From a virus (lineage: Duplodnaviria; Heunggongvirae; Uroviricota; Caudoviricetes), in the IMG/VR virus record IMGVR_UViG_649989948_000008, positions 1-39,032 of that record: a DNA stretch of 39,032 bases; one strand, 5' to 3'. Made by a program: the position numbers and the translations under genes. The notes below the pieces were generated by a model, which was not told the DNA's origin, did not search any database, and saw only the letters and a program-made list of their open reading frames with translations. Below are positions 7,558-36,954 of the stretch, in pieces; the stretch's first letter is position 1; the number at the start of each line of letters is the position of its first letter.

Positions 7558-7606
7558 GTTTTCTTATCCTTTTAAACAAATTGTTTTCTTAATAAGATAA
7601 TTTCGA

Positions 7607-8775: not shown

Positions 8776-11115
8776 TTACTCTTCTACTGACTCGGTGGGG
8801 TTGTCTTTTGCTCTTCGGTCGTCGATTGCCTGCAAAGCCGCAATGATTTCAGCCAGTGGCTTCTCCCGATACATCTCGACGATCTGCGATTTGGTGTATT
8901 TCTTGTCACCAATTTCAACTCGCCCGCTGGCGTTCTTTGGCAGGTATCCTTCTTCCAGCATGTACTCGACGAGCGATTCGATAACGTCGAGGCCACGAGT
9001 AGGATCGAAGTAGAATTTCCAGGTGCATTTGCCATACGGTGGTGCAACTTTGTTTTTGATGCATTCTGCGCCTACGTCCTGGCCGATCTTCTCTTTACCA
9101 TCCTTCATCACCGATGCACCAAGACGGATACGTACAGAAGCGTAGAACTTCGGTGAATCTCCACCTGGCGACGTAGTAGGGTCGCCAAACATTACACCGA
9201 TTTTTGTGCGAACCTGATTCAAGAAGATGATGCAGGCGTTGTATTTGCGTGCCCACAAAGCCAGAGTAGGGAAGTTCGCACTCGTCGCACGAGCCAGTGC
9301 CGTATTGTCGTTCATGTTTAGCTGATCTTTGTCTTTGGCTGTGCCTTCAGCCATCTTTTCGAACTTCTCGGCTTTGGAGTTCGGAACCATAGACGCAAGA
9401 GAGTCAGCCACGATACAGATAGGTGCTGATTCGGGGATAAGCTCTTCATCACGAACCAATTTAAGTATTGTGCCGATCAACTCTACAGAGTCTTCGAAGG
9501 TATCTGGCTGCTTGTATACCCACTGACCGTCATCCTCATCTGCGTTCAGGCCATTGGCTACAGCCAGGCCAACGTCAAAACTGTTTTCATGATCGAGGAA
9601 TACCGCCAGACCATCTTGTTTTTGAGCGGAGATCATCGCTGCTGTTGCAAGGAATGTGTTGTGGCTGATAATCCCGTTAGACCAGAAAGAGTGTGTTTCC
9701 GGCATCGCTACGTCGAACGTTGGTGCTTCACCTTCCTCAATAGCCACGACTTCGTCGTAGAACAAGTTAGAGCCAATTACCGCTGCCAGTTGTGCAAACA
9801 GATGCTCGTTAAAACGATTCTTTCTGCCAATGAAGGAGACATAGATTTCTCGCAGTTTGTCTATTCCGACACGATCGCCGCGGCCAATAACGTGGTCTAC
9901 CAGAGCGTAGTCTTCACGGGTGGTCTTGGTGAGCGACTCGTAGAGTGATTTCACTAAGCCGCTGATGTGCGGAACATAGCCTGAGTAAGTGCGGTCAAAA
10001 CCAATGTCCCGTTTGGTTGCCACTGATAAACGTGCCGGAGATTCGAAACCAATCGTTGACAGAAAAAGGTCGTAATTAGAGCCACTGAATGACAGCCGGT
10101 AATATGTATTTTCATAACCCGCGACGTGTTTTTCAGAGATAGTTGACGTAATCCCCAGATTCAGGAGCATGAGGCGAATTTGCTGTAGCAGCAGCCCACT
10201 CGCGCTCACAACCTCAATGCAGCGACCATCATTGACGTGGCATTCCAGCTCAAAGTAGCCGCGAAGGAATGCAATTTGAGCCTCGCTATTGGCGCGACGC
10301 ACACTCAACGGAACCTGCTTGCCAGCAGCTTTCTCATACTCCAGACCATATTCTTTAAAAAGCAGCGAACGCACCTCTTTGCTAAACAGCACATGGTCTT
10401 CCGAGCCGTTATGTTTTCTCGTAACTGGCATCTTGTCTGATACCAGCGAAATGAGGCGGTAGTACTCATCCTTGATGAAAGGATCTGTGTTAGAAAAATT
10501 CACTGAATTTTCAGAGGCCACGTATCCGTCAGCAATTAAATAGCCCATCAGTTTTGCGATATTGGCATCCAGGTGCTGATCGCCGAATTGATGTGTGCCA
10601 ACCATTGAAGGAATCGTGTCGCCTACACTGATTTTTTCAGCATGTCGCCAGACGACATTACCTAAGTCGTCAACCACACGGATTGGGTGACGGAACGTAG
10701 CCTCGATATAACCGCCTGATGCCAGCTTAATACGCTTGAATTTGCGACGGTTGTTCCATGTCAGGTGTGAGGTCTTCTCTATCACGCCATTTTCATTGAT
10801 GAGTCCAACGTTATGCTCTACATCGCGAGTAGTGCATGTCGCTTTGTACCCTTCAATCTCAAACAACTCTTTCACTGTTACCATTCCACGCTCCGTCAGC
10901 AGCATGGTGTCTGCGGTAACACATTTCCCCGCGCTTGGTGGCCCGAATACTTCTACGATACGACCACATGGGAAACCGCCATCGTAACGACCGGAAATCG
11001 CTTTGTTTAACGGAGGAAAGCCTGTGTCAATCCAATGAGTTACTTTCTGAATTTCGTCGTTGCTACCGATTTTCTTTTTCAGAGCAAGTGCCAGTGCGGA
11101 TTTTCCTTTTGCCAT
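8776..11115 (-). CDS. recA: RecA-family recombinase interrupted by an intein (779-aa precursor, ~357-aa predicted mature protein)
   Basis: Exteins resemble RecA: GRIVEVFGPPSAGK|..|TFLA (Walker A), VFLDHENSFD, VMFGDPTTSPGGDSPKFYASVRIRLG; ATG with AGGAG RBS. Confidence 0.8.
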   Translation of the reverse strand: MAKGKSALALALKKKIGSNDEIQKVTHWIDTGFPPLNKAISGRYDGGFPCGRIVEVFGPPSAGKCVTADTMLLTERGMVTVKELFEIEGYKATCTTRDVEHNVGLINENGVIEKTSHLTWNNRRKFKRIKLASGGYIEATFRHPIRVVDDLGNVVWRHAEKISVGDTIPSMVGTHQFGDQHLDANIAKLMGYLIADGYVASENSVNFSNTDPFIKDEYYRLISLVSDKMPVTRKHNGSEDHVLFSKEVRSLLFKEYGLEYEKAAGKQVPLSVRRANSEAQIAFLRGYFELECHVNDGRCIEVVSASGLLLQQIRLMLLNLGITSTISEKHVAGYENTYYRLSFSGSNYDLFLSTIGFESPARLSVATKRDIGFDRTYSGYVPHISGLVKSLYESLTKTTREDYALVDHVIGRGDRVGIDKLREIYVSFIGRKNRFNEHLFAQLAAVIGSNLFYDEVVAIEEGEAPTFDVAMPETHSFWSNGIISHNTFLATAAMISAQKQDGLAVFLDHENSFDVGLAVANGLNADEDDGQWVYKQPDTFEDSVELIGTILKLVRDEELIPESAPICIVADSLASMVPNSKAEKFEKMAEGTAKDKDQLNMNDNTALARATSANFPTLALWARKYNACIIFLNQVRTKIGVMFGDPTTSPGGDSPKFYASVRIRLGASVMKDGKEKIGQDVGAECIKNKVAPPYGKCTWKFYFDPTRGLDVIESLVEYMLEEGYLPKNASGRVEIGDKKYTKSQIVEMYREKPLAEIIAALQAIDDRRAKDNPTESVEE
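9658..10923 (-). mobile_element. intein with LAGLIDADG homing-endonuclease domain (422 aa) inserted in the RecA P-loop
   Basis: Starts with Cys (CVTADTMLL), TxxH block (ATFRH), LAGLIDADG blocks (LMGYLIADGYV, FLRGYFELECHV), ends ...ISHN followed by Thr; junction codons checked by hand. Confidence 0.8.
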
Positions 11116-13534: not shown

Positions 13535-13966
13535 TCAACGGGGAGTAATAAAGCGTTCAGAGCCTAATCGCTCTAATTCAACGATGGCCATCTTTGACGC
13601 CTGAACGATCATGTCTCGGCGATGCGAAAAGGCGGCGACAGCATGTTTGTATATGTCTGCGATGTGCCGTGCTTCATCCAACTTCTGCCTTTTAGACAGA
13701 TACTGTGGGTTTGTTTTAACCTTAGCGTCCAGTACAGATTCGTTGAACTTAATGCCGTTCATACTCAAGTTCTTACGCTCTGTGTCGTATAGCTTTGCTT
13801 CAACAGCTTCAAGGTTAAGTTTTGCCTCTGCGACACTTCTTTCTGCATGAGCGAGTTTTGAGCCATACTCCATTAAAAGGCGGGGTTGTCTACGCCAGAC
13901 TTCCTCCAGATTGTCTCGGTCAAACTCGAGATCAGACATTATTTTCTCGTAAATATCGGTGATCAT
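13535..13966 (-). CDS. hypothetical protein (143 aa, helical)
   Basis: ATG in conserved start context; no motif recognised. Confidence 0.4.
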   Translation of the reverse strand: MITDIYEKIMSDLEFDRDNLEEVWRRQPRLLMEYGSKLAHAERSVAEAKLNLEAVEAKLYDTERKNLSMNGIKFNESVLDAKVKTNPQYLSKRQKLDEARHIADIYKHAVAAFSHRRDMIVQASKMAIVELERLGSERFITPR

Positions 13967-14091
13967 GTGCTTTCCTTTTTACTTATCATCTTATATTGAT
14001 TATATCATTGTGATGATAAGGCAAGGAGTTCGAGGATAGGGGATATGAGGGGATAAGAGAAAACATGGCCATAGAGGCCATGTTTATTGGA

Positions 14092-15261
14092 TCACGACTT
14101 AATAGTTTCTGCTACGTCGGCTAATATCGCTTCTAGTCGTTCTCCCTCTTCAGGTCTGAAGTAAAGAATGTTGGGGTTAAACCCGTAAAAGACAGTAACG
14201 TCAAGGTCTGGAAGATACTCCTTCCTGCCGACCAAATCGGATGGCTTGTTTTTGTTGTTAAACAATGCCGTTGCCCGGCTACCACACGTCAGCACATAGG
14301 TCGGGCGCACCAGATTGATCTCTTCACGCATAAAGTCGGTGAACTGGCCGATCTCGTCTTTGGTGTAGTCCTTTTCTTTGTCTTTCACCTTTTTGCAAAC
14401 GCCTGTGACATAGAGATCGCCCATGCGCAAATCCCCAGCCGTCAACAGCTTGGCCTTAAAATCGTCGTATCCGTTCTCCATAAAGTAACCGGTTCGAGCA
14501 TCATTGCCGTTCGCATTGTCCAGAATGATCATGATTTTCGGCTTAATACCAATGCTGGGGCGGATTAGTTCATCACCTAAGCCCATTTCAGCCGCCATCC
14601 GCGTCATGAGTACGTTAATCTCAGCCGAACGTTTGGGGTTCATCTCAAACGGACGTGACGCTTTAACTGCGTCTATGACAAGGTTTCCCATCAATTCAGC
14701 CTGGTCGCGTAGGCGCTCTGGATCAGTTGCTGGCAGACTACCTGGCTCGATGGATGCAAACGCCCCTACTTTTTGCAGCGATTCGCGCACTCGACTATTA
14801 CAGGCACGTTTCTCGACAGCTTCTTCGAATTGCGCCAGTGACTCGAATTTGCCGCCAACTTTTTCTCGCGCTCTCATGATGGCTTGGCAGCCATTCTCAG
14901 AACACCCTTTCACAGCAGAGAAGGGCGCATACAGCACCTGGCTGCCATCTTCAAGCGTGCGGATCTCGATTCGGTTAGATGACACGTTAACGTCTGGTGG
15001 CAATACGCGAATACCATAGGTCAGCGCATCTTTAACCAGCCCCTGGTGTTTATCTTCGCCAAGAATAGTGAGAGCAGCAGCGAAGAACTCCGCGGGATAA
15101 TGAGTTTTCAACCACATAGATTGATAACTGATTAAGGAGTAAGCAACAGAGTGTGATTTGTTGAAGGCATACGCGCCGGATTTCTCAAACATATTCCAGA
15201 TTTCTTCGGCTCGTTCGTGCGTCAGGCCATTGCTCTCTTCGACAACACCGGTAATTTTCAT
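14092..15261 (-). CDS. dnaE: DNA polymerase III alpha-like (DnaE), C-terminal fragment of a split gene
   Basis: Begins within the conserved region AYAFNKSHSVAYSLISYQSMWLKTHYPAEFFAA; its ATG overlaps the HNH gene stop (ATGA). Confidence 0.75.
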   Translation of the reverse strand: MKITGVVEESNGLTHERAEEIWNMFEKSGAYAFNKSHSVAYSLISYQSMWLKTHYPAEFFAAALTILGEDKHQGLVKDALTYGIRVLPPDVNVSSNRIEIRTLEDGSQVLYAPFSAVKGCSENGCQAIMRAREKVGGKFESLAQFEEAVEKRACNSRVRESLQKVGAFASIEPGSLPATDPERLRDQAELMGNLVIDAVKASRPFEMNPKRSAEINVLMTRMAAEMGLGDELIRPSIGIKPKIMIILDNANGNDARTGYFMENGYDDFKAKLLTAGDLRMGDLYVTGVCKKVKDKEKDYTKDEIGQFTDFMREEINLVRPTYVLTCGSRATALFNNKNKPSDLVGRKEYLPDLDVTVFYGFNPNILYFRPEEGERLEAILADVAETIKS

Positions 15262-15992
15262 GCAGTCACCTCATCAATCTTCACGAACTCATACCCATTG
15301 GAGGCCAGCCAGTTCCGTTGGCGCTCCCAGCTCCATATCTCTTCACGCATTTCACTATGCAGGCGAATGTGGGCGTCTTCTGGAAGTGCTACAAGATTCC
15401 CAGGGGCGTTATCTATCGTATCGCGGTTAATATGGTGGACATGTTCATCGTCACGTAGCTCCCGACCGAGACGTTCTTTCGCTATCAATCGATGAACGTA
15501 TTCGTATTGCGAAACGCCATTGTTACCAACCAGCTGCATCATGTAGCCGTTGGTTTTTACGATGATGCCACCTTTGTAGTTGTTCGCTTCTTCTCCGATC
15601 TTTCCGCGTTTGGCAGCCGCCAGCTTTTCCTTCGTCTCCGCGCGGATTGTTCTGCCGGTTAGCTTTTTCGAAACGGTGGCCACTCGCTCATCGATATCAG
15701 CACGCAGACCGGCATTCCACGAGGTTTTCCCATACATAGGGTTGCCAGTGCCAGTCCGGGCTTCGGAGAGACGCTTCATACGTTCGTCATTATTTTTGTT
15801 TTTGCCACGATTCCAGGCTGGGGTAGCGGAGATCCGCGCGCTTCCGCGCCTGATCCCCCATTTGGCTAATAAGCGGTCAATATTTGCCTTGCTGCAACCA
15901 GCTTCGGCGGCAATGTCTTCTTTTCTCATCAGGTCAACCATGTAACGCTGACGTAACCATTCTTCTGTGATTTTGTACTTCGTACTCGGCAT
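15258..15992 (-). CDS. HNH homing endonuclease inserted between the two DnaE fragments
   Basis: HNH motif EHVHHINRDTIDNAPGNLVALPEDAHIRLH, NUMOD-like repeats and an N-terminal HTH-like segment; preceded by its own AAACAAATTGTTTTCTTA motif. Confidence 0.75.
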   Translation of the reverse strand: MPSTKYKITEEWLRQRYMVDLMRKEDIAAEAGCSKANIDRLLAKWGIRRGSARISATPAWNRGKNKNNDERMKRLSEARTGTGNPMYGKTSWNAGLRADIDERVATVSKKLTGRTIRAETKEKLAAAKRGKIGEEANNYKGGIIVKTNGYMMQLVGNNGVSQYEYVHRLIAKERLGRELRDDEHVHHINRDTIDNAPGNLVALPEDAHIRLHSEMREEIWSWERQRNWLASNGYEFVKIDEVTA

Positions 15993-16040
15993 TTCTAAGA
16001 CTCACTAAACAAATTGTTTTCTTATCTTATAAATTAATTC

Positions 16041-18404
16041 TCAAATATCGAAGCTCGTTATGTCGGCATTTATTGCCATTGCTTCGGCATAAGTGCGACG
16101 CTCACCATCAGCACAAAGTAGGCGTGCTGCTTTATGGATTTTTCTCGTAGAACCATCATCCAGTGACACTGTCACCCAGCCTTCCTCCGCTCGCTTAATG
16201 AAGTCGCCGCCAATGGATTTCATTTTCTCCATATCTTTTTTCCCGATCGCTTTCCTGACCGAGTCTGCTTCCGCCATTGAGAACCCCGCCAAGATTCGCG
16301 TAGCAGCCATGATCTGTTCCTGATAAATCAGAACTCCGTTTGTGTCGCGAGAGATGTCGTCCAGCATTGGGTGTAAGGAATGTGGGGCCATGAAGCCTTT
16401 GGCCACGGACACATAATCGTCCAACATGCCGGATTGAATCGGGCCAGGTCGGAAGAGCGCAGTTGTAGCGACGACCGTTTTAAAGCTCATTGGCTCAATT
16501 CCACCACCTAAATCTTTAAGCAGCTTGCGCATTGGGCCTGATTCAAGCTGGAATACGCCCTGTGTATACCCTGCAGCAAAACCATCCAGCACCTTGCGAT
16601 CTTCAAGAGAAATGGCATCAAGATTGATATCTTCACCTGTGTTCTCTTTTATGTAGCGTTTTGCACTATCGAGCAAATCGAGAGTTGCCAGGCCAAGCAC
16701 GTCCAGCTTAATTAGGCCCATAGCCTCGCAGTAACGCTTGTCAAATGCGATACAACGCGCGTCACCACGGCGTTCAACCGGTGTACGTTCTGTCAGAGGA
16801 ACACCTGCTACGATCATCCCTGCCGCATGTCTACCAAAGCCACGCATAAGGCTTTGTAACTTGCAGGCTGCATTGAATGCATCAGGATATTTTGTTGCGT
16901 ATTTGTCGAGACTTGCCAGTTGTTCGCGCAGCTCTTCCAATGGAAGGCTATCATCCTCGACGTTCTTCAGTTCTTTTGATACCGCCATATCTGCGGACTC
17001 CACACCATAAATACGAGCGGTGTCACGTAGTGCAGAGGCTGCGCCCAGGTAGGTGAAGTTCGGAATGCCTGCAACGTAATCTTCGCCGTAGCGTTCATTC
17101 AGATACTCGATCACCTCATGGCGACGTGCCTGGCTGAAGTCCAAGTCCGCATCCGGCAAGTCGAGACGCTCAGGGTTGATGAAACGCTCAAACAGAAGAC
17201 CGTGACGGATTGGGTCGACGTTGGTTATGCCTATGCACCACGCCACCAGAGAACCGGCAGAGGAACCACGACCAGGCCCAACGGGAATGCCAGTTTCACG
17301 ACTATGATTCATCAGATCGCGCACCATCAGGAAGTAACCACAGAATCCCAGGCGAGTCAGCGTGTCCATTTCGTACTTTAGCCGCTCAACATAAACCCTG
17401 TTCTCAGAAGCAGGTGGTGTGTAGCCAAACTCTTTTGTGGTAAGACGTTTACGCAGCCCTGCAACAGCCAGTTTCATAAGCGTTGCAGGCTCGTCGTCTG
17501 CCATCTTGGGCAGTGCTGGTGGCAATTCATGCCAGCGCCATGTGCAGGCATCGATAATGGAGTCCTGCGTTGTTGAGGCCATTGCAGCTGTTACTGGCAC
17601 ATCCATGCGAACGGAGAAGGCTTTAAGCGCCTCAAGGAGATGGCGACGACCATTGATGGCGTTATCTCGCTGGTGGGGGATACGCAGACGATGCGGCTGG
17701 TCGATTTTTATGTTGTTCGTAACCATGTGCGCAATGTCTTTAATGTCAGCATCGTCGATCGATTCGTAATAAGCGGGATAGAACGCTACTGGCTCTATTT
17801 TCAGTGCGCTGGCGACTTTCATCGCCCGGACGTTAATCTGGTCGTAGAATGGGGTAGGGTGCGGATAGACCACACTATAGAAGTTGTCTTTTCCACCCGC
17901 TGTAATCAGTGTGCTTATGATTTTTGCAAAATCGTTGCGTTGGAACACGCTACCGATGTCGGAAGTAAGCAGGATGATGTTGCCTTTGGCATATGTAGAA
18001 ACCAACTGTTCGAGCGAGAGACGCGGTACAAAGTAGAACTGTTCTCGTGTGTTGGCCACCGTCATTAGTTCGCAGATGTCGCGATATCCTTGCTCATTTT
18101 TAATTAGAGCGGTAAACGAGTAGTTACGTCCCCGCTCTAATGATTCCATACATCTCATAGATTCTTTAGCAAGTTTAGCCCGGTGCTCGTATGTGGGATC
18201 ATCAACAATGTTTAGTTTCACACCACAAATAACCGCCATGTCGTCACCAGCGGCACGTTGTAGTGGAATAACGCTCGCAATATTCATGCTATCTGCTGAA
18301 ATTACAGCGGTGTAGCCAGCTTCTCTGGCAATCTTCACCGCGTTTTCTGCTTTTAGAGCCGACTCCCCAAGTGAGAAGTCAGTTCGAACCATCAGTGCCT
18401 TCAT
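16041..18404 (-). CDS. dnaE: DNA polymerase III alpha-like (DnaE), N-terminal fragment (PHP and polymerase core)
   Basis: GRGSSAGSLVAWCIGITNVDPIRHGLLFERFINPERLDLPDADLDF and RHAAGMIVAG match the Pol III alpha core; ends just after RKAIGKKDMEKMKSIGGDFIKRAEEG. Confidence 0.8.
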   Translation of the reverse strand: MKALMVRTDFSLGESALKAENAVKIAREAGYTAVISADSMNIASVIPLQRAAGDDMAVICGVKLNIVDDPTYEHRAKLAKESMRCMESLERGRNYSFTALIKNEQGYRDICELMTVANTREQFYFVPRLSLEQLVSTYAKGNIILLTSDIGSVFQRNDFAKIISTLITAGGKDNFYSVVYPHPTPFYDQINVRAMKVASALKIEPVAFYPAYYESIDDADIKDIAHMVTNNIKIDQPHRLRIPHQRDNAINGRRHLLEALKAFSVRMDVPVTAAMASTTQDSIIDACTWRWHELPPALPKMADDEPATLMKLAVAGLRKRLTTKEFGYTPPASENRVYVERLKYEMDTLTRLGFCGYFLMVRDLMNHSRETGIPVGPGRGSSAGSLVAWCIGITNVDPIRHGLLFERFINPERLDLPDADLDFSQARRHEVIEYLNERYGEDYVAGIPNFTYLGAASALRDTARIYGVESADMAVSKELKNVEDDSLPLEELREQLASLDKYATKYPDAFNAACKLQSLMRGFGRHAAGMIVAGVPLTERTPVERRGDARCIAFDKRYCEAMGLIKLDVLGLATLDLLDSAKRYIKENTGEDINLDAISLEDRKVLDGFAAGYTQGVFQLESGPMRKLLKDLGGGIEPMSFKTVVATTALFRPGPIQSGMLDDYVSVAKGFMAPHSLHPMLDDISRDTNGVLIYQEQIMAATRILAGFSMAEADSVRKAIGKKDMEKMKSIGGDFIKRAEEGWVTVSLDDGSTRKIHKAARLLCADGERRTYAEAMAINADITSFDI

Positions 18405-18584
18405 GTGTTTTTACCTTTCTGGTTTTTTTGATTTTGTCATTGGGGAAGCCTACGAACTTCCCATGCATCGAAATCGCAACTTCTTTTGCTGATTGGTGAC
18501 AATCGGGCTTGTCTGGACACACCAGACAAGCCTTACCAGTTTCAGAAGCAGCGATAAGAGAGCCGAAACATCCTTTACGCACGA

Positions 18585-33895: not shown

Positions 33896-33938
33896 GTGCT
33901 TTCCTTTGTTTTTTAAACAAATTGTTTTCTAGTGTTAG

Positions 33939-36809: not shown

Positions 36810-36954
36810 TGGAGAGTTCCCTTTGCGTCTATTATTATTGTCTGAAACAACTTGTTTTCTTATATGTGATATAGCCTAAATGCCTACGGCTGCTGTGTAA
36901 AGGTTAAATGGTAGGTGCTGCCTTAGAATTTTTAGGCGAGAATCAATGGCTGTT

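What the first reader, a model, noticed from the sequence alone, without database searches (positions are those of the whole stretch)
14092..18404. DnaE polymerase gene split into two ORFs by a free-standing HNH homing-endonuclease gene
The 787-aa ORF covers the PHP domain and polymerase core and ends just after ...GKKDMEKMKSIGGDFIKRAEEG plus a 45-aa tail. A 244-aa HNH endonuclease gene with its own upstream motif follows. The 389-aa ORF then resumes at ...THERAEEIWNMFEKSGAYAFNKSHS... and its ATG overlaps the HNH stop. The break lies in the region where E. coli DnaE has ...AEGAEKNG...FNKSHS. The polymerase would have to work as two polypeptides.
Basis: partly seen in the sequence, partly recalled or inferred. 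Interest (0 to 1): 0.6.

Follow-up and report, generated by a model that had tools for sequence, protein, structure and literature searches.

The report
Phage-plasmid DNA polymerase gene in two pieces
An SSU5-like phage-plasmid of E. coli carries its own replicative DNA polymerase (DnaE) as two separate genes with a selfish HNH nuclease gene between them, and both halves are intact and strongly conserved, so the enzyme most likely works as two polypeptides with no intron or intein.

Summary
Three minus-strand ORFs are present: dnaE-N (16041-18404, 787 aa), an HNH/NUMOD3 endonuclease (15258-15992, 244 aa) and dnaE-C (14092-15261, 389 aa). The HNH stop and the dnaE-C start share ATGA.

The window is an SSU5-like phage-plasmid. 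Close relatives (SSU5, PhiR41_1, CMS-2020a) have one uninterrupted 1168-1172-aa gene. I found no intron and no intein. Both halves are under strong purifying selection (dN/dS 0.015-0.05).

About 1.2 kb (window ~15166-16386: nuclease gene plus flanking dnaE sequence) is a foreign cassette in a backbone otherwise 96-100% identical to unsplit alleles. That is the signature of homing with co-conversion.

The break is older and more widespread than this nuclease. Diverged lineages carry it with a different nuclease (NUMOD4-HNH, 243 PLSDB plasmids, mostly Klebsiella), a distant homologue of this HNH, an unknown ORF, or only a 65-84-nt spacer.

The "45-aa tail" is not junk. It is most of a small clade-specific beta domain. 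AlphaFold models of fused relatives place the break at a hairpin turn inside it, which suggests strand pairing holds the halves together.

This is a new member of the known "genes in pieces" kind. Assembly and nuclease activity are untested.

The parts
16041..18404 (-). dnaE-N: 787-aa N-terminal piece of the C-family (Pol III alpha) polymerase. It holds the PHP domain, the palm/thumb core with the catalytic PDxDxD motif, the first half of the fingers, and a 45-aa tail.
   Evidence: ORF list. Pfam PHP, DNA_pol3_alpha and DNA_pol3_finger. NCBIfam PRK05673 positions 9-726. Aligns to E. coli alpha 557-740. dN/dS 0.03-0.05.
16044..16178 (-). The 45-aa tail (WVTVSLDDGSTRKIHKAARLLCADGERRTYAEAMAINADITSFDI). 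It forms most of a small clade-specific beta domain that E. coli DnaE and more distant UDG-fused DnaEs lack.
   Evidence: Homologous segments occur in unsplit and split relatives. P0161, P0162, P0169 and P0173 lack the insert. AlphaFold models of fused relatives give four strands plus a helix, pLDDT 73-91. No Pfam hit at E<=1.
15993..16040 (-). 48-nt intercistronic spacer. It has three in-frame stops and a palindromic motif (AAAACAATTTGTTT, 16007-16020) shared with four other sites in the window.
   Evidence: Sequence. Motif statistics: 5 sites versus 0.17 expected. Sites lie 16-37 nt upstream of minus-strand start codons. The spacer is retained in HNH-deleted alleles L004 and L018.
15258..15992 (-). 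Free-standing HNH endonuclease gene (244 aa: N-terminal HTH-like region, NUMOD3, HNH_3). Presumed homing endonuclease.
   Evidence: Pfam. PHROG 21964 'HNH endonuclease', full-length match. Present or absent at this site among relatives. dN/dS about 0.2 with a much lower dS than the flanking dnaE. Only five clusters, all at least 88% identical, in the 5.8-billion-protein set. A distant homologue sits at the same site in L008.
15267..15272 (-). Shine-Dalgarno-like GAGGTG, 5 nt upstream of the dnaE-C ATG, embedded in the 3' end of the HNH ORF.
   Evidence: Sequence. The equivalent AAGGTG or AAGAGG is kept before the C-fragment ATG in nuclease-less alleles L004, L018, L011 and L089.
14092..15261 (-). 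dnaE-C: 389-aa C-terminal piece. It holds a 10-residue head (MKITGVVEES), the rest of the fingers (FNKSHS...), the helix-hairpin-helix/beta-binding region, and a C-terminal family-4-UDG-like domain.
   Evidence: ORF list. Pfam HHH_6. Aligns to E. coli alpha 732-896. NCBIfam PRK05673 positions 725-886 and UDG_fam4. dN/dS 0.015-0.03. All split lineages start MK[IV].
15166..16386 (.). Imported cassette (co-conversion tract): about 345 nt of dnaE-N 3' end, the spacer, the HNH gene, and about 95 nt of dnaE-C 5' end.
   Evidence: Window versus HNH-less E. coli alleles is 96-100% identical outside this tract and about 65% or unalignable inside it. Boundaries come from mismatch density. The same tract is 93-99% identical to Enterobacter, Cronobacter and Buttiauxella split alleles whose distal dnaE is only 73-85% identical.
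14061..14085 (-). Terminator-like hairpin just after dnaE-C. No terminator-like or sigma-70-like site lies between the three ORFs on this strand, so they are probably co-transcribed.
   Evidence: Consensus scan. This is a pattern match only.

Best explanation
**What it is.** The window comes from an SSU5-like phage-plasmid. Its own C-family replicative polymerase gene is in two pieces, broken inside the fingers domain at a small clade-specific insert. A free-standing HNH endonuclease gene occupies the gap.

**How this lineage got it.** A cassette of about 1.2 kb was copied into a previously uninterrupted E. coli-type dnaE. The cassette comprises the diverged 3' end of dnaE-N with its stop, a 48-nt spacer, the HNH gene, and the start of dnaE-C with its own ribosome-binding site and ATG. 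The most likely route is nuclease-triggered recombinational repair (homing with co-conversion of flanks).

**How it is expressed.** The three ORFs are probably transcribed together. dnaE-N terminates at TGA. The HNH gene is translated from its own ATG. dnaE-C is translated from an ATG that overlaps the HNH stop and is preceded by GAGGTG.

**How the enzyme works.** Nothing is spliced at the RNA or protein level. The two polymerase polypeptides associate non-covalently to rebuild the fingers domain. The last strand of the N-fragment tail pairs with the first strand of the C-fragment head, as a beta-hairpin inside the small insert domain.

**Shown:**
- the anatomy;
- the existence of unsplit alleles;
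- absence of detectable intron or intein;
- purifying selection on both halves, including in clades with no nuclease gene;
- the mosaic cassette;
- the recurrence of the same break with different or no occupants.

**Inferred:**
- physical assembly and polymerase activity of the two-piece enzyme;
- the hairpin clasp (from AlphaFold models of fused homologues);
- nuclease activity and target;
- co-transcription.
For: **Anatomy and complementarity.**

**Uninterrupted alleles.** SSU5, PhiR41_1 and CMS-2020a have alleles of 1168-1172 aa.

**Frequency.**
- The split allele with this HNH is in 25 PLSDB plasmids: E. coli, Enterobacter at 94.8% identity and Cronobacter at 90.7%.
- It is in 23 of the 244 complete E. 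coli genomes that carry an SSU5-type dnaE, always on plasmids.

**No splicing element.**
- Rfam at E<=10 finds no intron family in 13900-18600.
- Only 48 nt are non-coding.
- Pfam finds no Hint/intein signal in either fragment or in the insert at E<=1.
- Pfam does detect a LAGLIDADG intein in the neighbouring recA-like gene and a split intein elsewhere in dnaE of relatives.

**Selection.**
- N-fragment dN/dS 0.03-0.05 at dS 0.56-1.18. C-fragment 0.015-0.03 at dS 0.69-1.66.
- Within a nuclease-less split clade (L089 vs L091): 30 synonymous vs 7 non-synonymous changes in the N-fragment, and 59.5 vs 3.5 in the C-fragment.

**Mobility.**
- HNH dS is only 0.15-0.38 while flanking dnaE dS is 0.66-1.66.
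- The identity profiles show a mosaic.
- The HNH-bearing allele sits at three or more positions in the backbone tree.

**The break persists without the nuclease.**
- Buttiauxella L004 has a 69-nt gap with an ATGTCATGA remnant.
- L018 has a 65-nt gap that keeps the last ~20 nt of the HNH ORF.
- L011, L089-92, L135 and L136 have 70-84-nt gaps. Their N-fragment protein clusters have 59, 383 and 111 member sequences.

**Other occupants of the same break.**
- A NUMOD4-HNH_3 gene in 243 PLSDB plasmids.
- A 31%-identical homologue of this HNH in a dnaE whose C-fragment is only 39% identical.
- A 184-aa unknown ORF.

**Structure.**
- AlphaFold models of fused relatives have mean pLDDT 86.8 and 87.7.
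- They match Pol III alpha structures at TM 0.66-0.82.
- They place the break at the turn between strands EIRIE and KLVKGV in P0147, or within strand YVEIVSEQ in P0055.
Against: - No direct evidence exists that the two polypeptides are made, bind each other or polymerise DNA.
- I could not model the two-chain complex.
- The nuclease has never been assayed, and its recognition site is unknown.
- No isolated phage in the phage collection carries this particular HNH allele.
- Co-transcription rests only on the absence of consensus promoter or terminator matches. The palindromic motif in the spacer could mark a separate control point.
- Purifying selection shows that each half is useful, not that they act as one enzyme.
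Confidence: 0.8

Rival explanations
1. The HNH gene did not create the break. The dnaE of this clade was already split by a short intercistronic spacer (or was split ancestrally), and nuclease genes of different families have repeatedly settled in, and been lost from, that gap. Uninterrupted alleles that carry the insert would then be secondary re-fusions.
For: - The same break, with all C-fragments starting MK[IV], occurs with two unrelated HNH families, an unknown ORF, or no ORF, across lineages down to 39% C-fragment identity.
- In the tree of the first 700 residues, the deepest insert-bearing branch is split and most deep branches are split.
- More distant UDG-fused DnaEs lack the insert altogether. 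The insert and the break could therefore have arisen together.
- Fused alleles read as tail plus head joined in frame.
- A precedent exists: phage 44RR gene 43 is split by an untranslated spacer and phage 25 has a seg gene at the same place (PMC2988022).
Against: - Two nuclease-less alleles (L004, L018) clearly derive from HNH-bearing ones by deletion, so spacer-only states can be secondary.
- A homologue of this HNH sits at the same site in a very distant dnaE, so this nuclease family may be as old as the break.
- The tree is neighbour-joining on a gene shown to be mosaic, so ancestral states are unreliable.
- In this window's lineage, the break and the HNH gene demonstrably arrived together in an otherwise unsplit-type backbone.
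Confidence: 0.4
2. The three ORFs are expressed as one polymerase after removal of the insert, by a group I/II intron, by a (split) intein, or by ribosomal bypass of the gap.
For: - Phage polymerase genes often carry introns and inteins.
- Relatives L008-L010 and L012 do use a split intein plus an HNH gene at another dnaE site.
- The cyanobacterial DnaE split-intein site lies only about 20 residues downstream, before CFNKSHS (own knowledge; PMC2677866 gives the cyanobacterial case).
- T4 gene 60 bypasses a 50-nt gap next to mobA (PMC2988022).
Against: - Rfam finds no intron family at E<=10. 735 of the 783 intervening bases are ORF.
- Nuclease-less alleles have only 65-84-nt spacers.
- There is no Hint motif. 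The tail starts with W rather than C/S, there is no TxxH and no HN+C/S/T, and Pfam is negative at E<=1. The tail and head are retained in fused alleles, so they are part of the mature protein.
- Bypass of 779 nt across three in-frame stops is implausible. The C-fragment has its own ATG and SD in every lineage.
Confidence: 0.03
3. The polymerase gene was inactivated by the insertion. The fragments are pseudogenes on a plasmid that replicates with host enzymes.
For: - RefSeq flags the C-fragment as 'incomplete; missing N-terminus' (pseudo) in NZ_CP031136.
- One tested SSU5-like E. coli element was not inducible (PMC9600943). Its dnaE state is unknown to me.
- No isolated phage in the collection has this HNH allele.
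Against: - Both ORFs are full length in every copy examined, across four genera.
- dN/dS is 0.015-0.05 at dS up to 1.66 and stays low within split-only clades.
- Catalytic-motif columns are invariant in the alignment that includes the window protein.
- Split alleles are found in hundreds of plasmids and in three phage records.
Confidence: 0.05

Closest known systems
Aeromonas phage Aeh1 nrdA-a / mobE / nrdA-b (Friedrich et al. 2007; Crona et al. 2011, PMC3045599)
   Same: - A free-standing HNH homing-endonuclease gene lies inside an essential DNA-metabolism gene and splits it into two ORFs.
- The nuclease ORF overlaps the start of the downstream fragment.
- No intron or intein is involved.
- The fragments carry a C-terminal tail and an N-terminal head, absent from standard homologues, at the break.
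- In Aeh1 these tails are essential for assembly of the active enzyme.
   Different: - The host gene here is a C-family DNA polymerase in a temperate phage-plasmid, not a ribonucleotide reductase in a T4-like lytic phage.
- The tail and head here also exist, fused, in uninterrupted relatives, and they form a folded mini-domain in models.
- The break is polymorphic at population scale, with several occupants.
- Function of the two-piece enzyme is untested here.
[quoted passage not shown]
   Same: - A replicative polymerase (or topoisomerase) is encoded as two cistrons at a fixed break.
- One relative has a homing-endonuclease gene in the gap, and another has only a short untranslated intercistronic spacer.
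- The same open question applies: did the nuclease make the break or invade it?
   Different: - The polymerase family (C rather than B), the break position and the host range differ.
- Here at least two HNH families, an unknown ORF and spacer-only states are documented.
- Direct remnants show nuclease-gene deletion (L004, L018).
'Fractured genes': split intein plus free-standing endonuclease gene, including three dnaE loci (Dassa et al. 2009, PMC2677866); cyanobacterial DnaE split intein
   Same: - dnaE is encoded in two pieces, with (in fractured genes) a free-standing endonuclease gene between them.
- The cyanobacterial break lies about 20 residues from this one.
- Relatives of this element (L008-L010, L012) have a genuine fractured-gene arrangement at a second dnaE site.
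   Different: No intein halves flank the break in the window, so the pieces cannot be ligated by trans-splicing and must stay non-covalent.

Membership tests
Free-standing homing endonuclease gene (HNH class) | HNH nuclease domain with intact catalytic motif | tested here: met
   Pfam HNH_3 at 31.9 bits (cut-off 24.8) and NUMOD3 at 27.6 bits (cut-off 20.4). The motif EHVHHINRD...N...AHIRLH is conserved in all copies. Full-length match to PHROG 21964.
Free-standing homing endonuclease gene (HNH class) | Present or absent at one fixed site among closely related genomes | tested here: met
   Present in 23 of 244 E. coli genomes with this dnaE type. Uninterrupted alleles are 96-100% identical outside the cassette.
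Free-standing homing endonuclease gene (HNH class) | Horizontal spread with co-conversion of flanking sequence | tested here: met
   There is a mosaic tract at 15166-16386. The cassette is 93-99% identical across backbones that are 73-85% identical. HNH dS is far below flank dS. The allele sits at three or more tree positions.
Free-standing homing endonuclease gene (HNH class) | Not embedded in an intron or intein | tested here: met
   Rfam negative. Pfam shows no Hint domain. The gene has its own ATG after a 48-nt spacer containing in-frame stops.
Free-standing homing endonuclease gene (HNH class) | Site-specific cleavage or nicking of the nuclease-less allele, and biased inheritance | not testable with these tools
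   Needs purified protein on PhiR41_1 or CMS-2020a dnaE DNA, and mixed-infection or co-residence crosses.
Genes in pieces (mobile-element-split gene working as separate polypeptides) | Contiguous gene in relatives; fragments together cover the whole protein | tested here: met
   787 + 389 = 1176 aa against 1168-1172 aa. The model coverage is complementary.
Genes in pieces (mobile-element-split gene working as separate polypeptides) | Both fragments maintained by selection, each with its own translation signals | tested here: met
   dN/dS 0.015-0.07. SD plus ATG precede the C-fragment in all lineages.
Genes in pieces (mobile-element-split gene working as separate polypeptides) | Fragments assemble into an active enzyme | not testable with these tools
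   The only support is indirect. AlphaFold models of fused homologues put the break at a beta-hairpin turn.
Split intein / fractured gene | N- and C-intein halves (Hint blocks A, B, F, G; Cys/Ser at position 1; HN plus Cys/Ser/Thr at the C-junction) flanking the break | tested here: not met
   No Pfam intein hit in the fragments or the insert at E<=1. The tail begins with W, there is no HN junction, and the tail plus head total only about 55 aa. Positive controls were detected.
Group I / II intron carrying an endonuclease ORF | Conserved catalytic RNA core around the ORF | tested here: not met
   No intron family at E<=10 in 13900-18600. Only 48 nt are non-coding. The spacer fold is not better than shuffles (z = -1.22).
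DNA polymerase III alpha (C-family, DnaE type) | PHP, palm, thumb, fingers and HhH architecture with conserved catalytic aspartates | tested here: met
   Pfam. TIGR00594 at 513 bits (cut-off 434) for the N-fragment alone. A fused relative's model matches 2HPI, 2HNH and 4JOM at TM 0.66-0.82. The PDxDxD and D555 columns are invariant. One difference from cellular DnaE: the C-terminal OB/tau-binding region is replaced by a UDG-family-4-like fold.

The most novel reading that the evidence does not exclude
The ~55-residue insert that straddles the break may be a domesticated leftover of the original mobile-element insertion. On this reading it now serves as a beta-hairpin clasp that lets a replicative C-family polymerase work in two pieces. 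The split state would then be ancestral for the whole SSU5 supergroup. Nuclease genes of several families would come and go in the gap, and the 'normal' one-piece alleles (SSU5 itself) would be secondary re-fusions. Nature would thus toggle an essential polymerase between one-chain and two-chain forms.
Probability: 0.3. Interest if true: 0.7.

Novelty: new member of a known kind. Interest (0 to 1): 0.5.

Why it matters
- **First of its kind for this polymerase family, as far as I could find.** My literature searches found no other C-family replicative polymerase encoded in two pieces with no intein to rejoin them.
- **A ready-made comparison set.** The break occurs in hundreds of sequenced E. 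coli, Klebsiella, Enterobacter and Cronobacter phage-plasmids. One-piece, two-piece-with-nuclease and two-piece-without-nuclease alleles coexist in near-identical backbones. This allows direct tests of how a split polymerase assembles, what it costs, and how homing endonucleases spread in temperate elements.
- **A candidate split point and clasp for engineering two-part Pol III alpha enzymes.**
- **An annotation problem.** RefSeq variously labels the C-terminal piece a pseudogene, a 'helix-hairpin-helix protein' or a 'uracil-DNA glycosylase'. Gene-content and pseudogene counts for these clinically common plasmids are distorted as a result.

Tried and rejected
- **Group I/II intron.** The Rfam E-value scan found only noise.
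- **Intein or split intein.** Pfam was negative on the fragments and on the isolated insert.
- **Regulatory hairpin in the spacer.** The fold was not better than shuffles (z = -1.22). I make no claim.
- **Sigma-70 promoter or terminator between the ORFs.** None on the coding strand.
- **Solved-structure relative of the HNH protein by sequence.** None at E<=1.
- **Distant HNH relatives by protein search.** Only clusters at least 88% identical. tblastn in phages gave only generic HNH-domain hits at 27-50% identity.
- **Homologue search with a 229-aa piece.** It returned only short proteins. This was useless for length statistics, but it exposed the three-piece relatives.
- **Modelling the window's own two fragments as one chain.** I modelled fused homologues instead.
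- **Prior description in the literature.** Four searches plus term searches inside two phage-plasmid papers found nothing on a split dnaE in SSU5-like elements. A search for phage vB_KpnS_p4727 found nothing.
- **Ancestral state from a neighbour-joining tree.** Suggestive only, because the gene is mosaic.

Full report
**1. The observation**

The minus strand carries three consecutive ORFs exactly as described: 16041-18404 (787 aa), 15258-15992 (244 aa) and 14092-15261 (389 aa).

- The first ORF ends ...GAT ATT TGA. A 48-nt spacer follows, containing two further in-frame stops. The second ORF starts at 15992.
- Its TGA overlaps the ATG of the third ORF, as ATGA. That ATG is preceded by GAGGTG at a 5-nt distance.
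- Pfam gives PHP, DNA_pol3_alpha and DNA_pol3_finger for the first ORF. It gives HNH_3 and NUMOD3 (both above gathering score) for the second, and HHH_6 plus a weak UDG hit for the third.

The two polymerase pieces abut on full-length models:

| Model | N-fragment | C-fragment |
|---|---|---|
| NCBIfam PRK05673 | 9-726 | 725-886 |
| PHROG 405 | 47-770 | 768-1173 |
| E. coli alpha | up to about 740 | from 732 |

The break is therefore in the fingers domain, at the E. coli ...AEKNG... position and about 20 residues before FNKSHS.

**2. What the element is, and the uninterrupted allele**

The region matches SSU5-like phage-plasmids. Salmonella phage SSU5 and Escherichia phages PhiR41_1, Cyrano and CMS-2020a have a single dnaE of 3507-3519 nt (1168-1172 aa) at the same place.

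- E. coli plasmids such as pGMI17-003_2 are 100% identical to the window across the junction.
- 244 of 5426 complete E. coli genomes carry this type of dnaE, always on a plasmid.
- 23 of those have the HNH-split allele.
- PLSDB holds 25 such plasmids, including Enterobacter (94.8% identity) and Cronobacter (90.7%).

**3. Not an intron, intein or pseudogene**

- **Intron.** An Rfam E-value scan of 13900-18600 finds no intron family. Only 48 of the 783 intervening bases are non-coding.
- **Intein.** Pfam finds no Hint/intein signal in either fragment or in the isolated tail-plus-head sequence at E<=1. The same library does detect a LAGLIDADG intein in the recA-like gene of this window. It also detects a split intein at another dnaE site in relatives.
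- **Pseudogene.** The table shows dN/dS for split alleles from E. coli, Enterobacter, Cronobacter and Buttiauxella.

| Gene | dN/dS | dS |
|---|---|---|
| N-fragment | 0.03-0.05 | 0.56-1.18 |
| C-fragment | 0.015-0.03 | 0.69-1.66 |
| HNH | about 0.2 | 0.15-0.38 |

Catalytic-motif columns are invariant in an alignment that includes the window protein. Decay is excluded.

**4. A mobile cassette**

Against the HNH-less E. coli alleles, the window's dnaE is 96-100% identical everywhere except window ~16386 to ~15166. There, identity falls to about 65% or the sequence is unalignable.

That same tract is 93-99% identical to the Enterobacter, Cronobacter and Buttiauxella split alleles, whose distal dnaE is only 73-85% identical. 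The HNH gene's dS is several-fold lower than that of the flanking gene. The HNH-bearing allele also appears at three or more positions in a tree of the N-terminal 700 residues.

So the nuclease gene, the stop, the spacer, the downstream start and roughly 345 + 95 nt of diverged dnaE flank move as one unit between backbones. This is the expected footprint of homing with co-conversion. No unsplit allele with flanks of this cassette's type turned up at megablast sensitivity.

**5. The break is older and broader than this nuclease**

I surveyed 80 viral and 40 genome loci, read the genomic context of six related N-fragment proteins (a seventh look-up found nothing), and ran plasmid searches. All of the following share the same break, and every C-fragment starts MK[IV]:

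| State at the break | Where seen |
|---|---|
| (a) This HNH gene, 779-nt gap | The window and its split relatives |
| (b) This HNH gene deleted | Buttiauxella L004 (69-nt gap, ATGTCATGA remnant); L018 (65-nt gap keeping the last ~20 nt of the HNH ORF) |
| (c) An unrelated NUMOD4-HNH_3-HTH gene, GTG start 5 nt after the N-fragment stop | 243 PLSDB plasmids, mostly Klebsiella, Enterobacter and Citrobacter; three phage records |
| (d) No ORF, 70-84-nt spacer | Several diverged lineages; N-fragment protein clusters of 59, 383 and 111 member sequences |
| (e) A 166-aa ORF, 31% identical to this HNH (E = 9e-19) | A dnaE whose C-fragment is only 39% identical |
| (f) A 184-aa unknown ORF | L137 |

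In state (b) the two deletions are independent, and both keep the split and an AAGGTG before the ATG.

Inside a nuclease-less split clade, selection remains strong: 30 synonymous vs 7 non-synonymous changes in the N-fragment, and 59.5 vs 3.5 in the C-fragment. The two-piece state is therefore stable in its own right.

**6. The tail is part of a small domain**

The 45-aa tail and the first ~10 residues of the C-fragment correspond to a 56-64-aa insert present, fused, in the uninterrupted alleles. More distant DnaE proteins that share the C-terminal UDG-like domain (1114-1130 aa) lack the insert and read like E. coli at this point.

I made AlphaFold models of two fused relatives, P0055 (mean pLDDT 86.8) and P0147 (87.7). 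P0055 matches solved Pol III alpha structures at TM 0.66-0.82.

- The insert is modelled as four short strands, a helix and a final hairpin, with pLDDT 73-91.
- In P0147 the strand ...EIRIE turns at G into KLVKGV.... These align with the window's ...ITSFDI(stop) and (M)KITGVV....
- The break therefore falls at a hairpin turn.

This suggests that the C-fragment's first strand pairs with the N-fragment's last strand. It is an inference from single-chain models; a direct two-chain model could not be run.

**7. Expression**

No consensus promoter or terminator lies between the ORFs on the coding strand. A terminator-like hairpin follows the C-fragment at 14085-14061.

The spacer holds the palindrome AAAACAATTTGTTT. 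This also occurs at four other sites in the window, against 0.17 expected, and all five sites lie 16-37 nt upstream of minus-strand start codons. Related palindromes occur in nuclease-less spacers of L135 and L136. Its role is unknown.

**8. Comparison with known systems**

The arrangement matches the 'genes in pieces' class:

- Aeh1 nrdA-a/mobE/nrdA-b, where tails at the break are essential for assembly (PMC3045599).
- T4 gene 39/60 with mobA.
- Gene 43 of Aeromonas phages 25 (with a seg gene) and 44RR (spacer only) (PMC2988022).

It differs from 'fractured genes' and from cyanobacterial DnaE, which use split inteins (PMC2677866). My searches found no description of a split dnaE in SSU5-like elements.

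**9. Verdict**

I add three points:

- The break is a conserved, population-wide polymorphism with several tenants.
- In this lineage it arrived as a ~1.2-kb cassette.
- The tail belongs to a probable clasp domain.

This is a new member of a known kind. Assembly, activity and nuclease function remain to be shown. Whether the split or the fused state is ancestral is unresolved.

Noticed in passing
window 8776-11115 (- strand): The 779-aa RecA-like gene contains a full intein with a LAGLIDADG endonuclease domain. Pfam finds Intein_splicing spanning residues 73-486, LAGLIDADG_3 at 279-356 and RecA at 484-703. The replication/recombination module thus hosts two different selfish elements.
   Followed up: partly
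window 7573-7587, 16006-16020, 22043-22056, 33914-33928, 36844-36858: The palindromic motif AAAACAANTTGTTT occurs at five sites against 0.17 expected by chance. Each site lies 16-37 nt upstream of a minus-strand start codon, and one is preceded by a terminator-like hairpin. It is possibly an operator or promoter element of the phage-plasmid. Its function is unknown.
   Followed up: partly
window 14095-14589 (- strand; C-fragment residues ~225-389): This DnaE has a family-4 uracil-DNA-glycosylase-like fold where cellular DnaE has the OB/tau-binding C-terminus. Evidence: Foldseek TM 0.73-0.77 to 4ZBY and 1L9G and a sub-threshold NCBIfam UDG_fam4 hit. I did not check whether it is catalytically active.
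   Followed up: partly
L008 3091-8290 (also L009, L010); L012: Distant relatives encode the same polymerase in three pieces. A genuine split intein (N-intein CLAGDS..., C-intein ...IVVHN|S) with an HNH gene between its halves sits at GVFQ(L/F)ES. In addition there is the intein-less break studied here.
   Followed up: partly
L011 4250-6606 (GCA_002978395.1, NRND01000018.1): There is an extra break of the N-fragment into 584 + 201 aa, with a 4-nt overlap. It is not seen in the near-identical L089-L091, where the N-fragment is intact. It could be a real third piece or an assembly frameshift.
   Followed up: no
proteins P0142, P0155, P0172: These are chimeric ORFs in which the dnaE N-part runs directly into RecA-like sequence (Pfam PF00154). 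In P0142 and P0172 the joint carries the intein C-terminal motif (...NGIISHN|T). P0142 breaks off inside the dnaE insert (...GKRRSYSEA|NGIISHN). They look like deletions joining dnaE to recA.
   Followed up: no
RefSeq records NZ_CP031136, NZ_CP041426, NZ_CP082122 and others: The identical C-fragment is annotated inconsistently. It appears as a pseudogene ('incomplete; missing N-terminus'), as 'helix-hairpin-helix domain-containing protein', as 'uracil-DNA glycosylase', or as 'DNA polymerase III subunit alpha'.
   Followed up: yes
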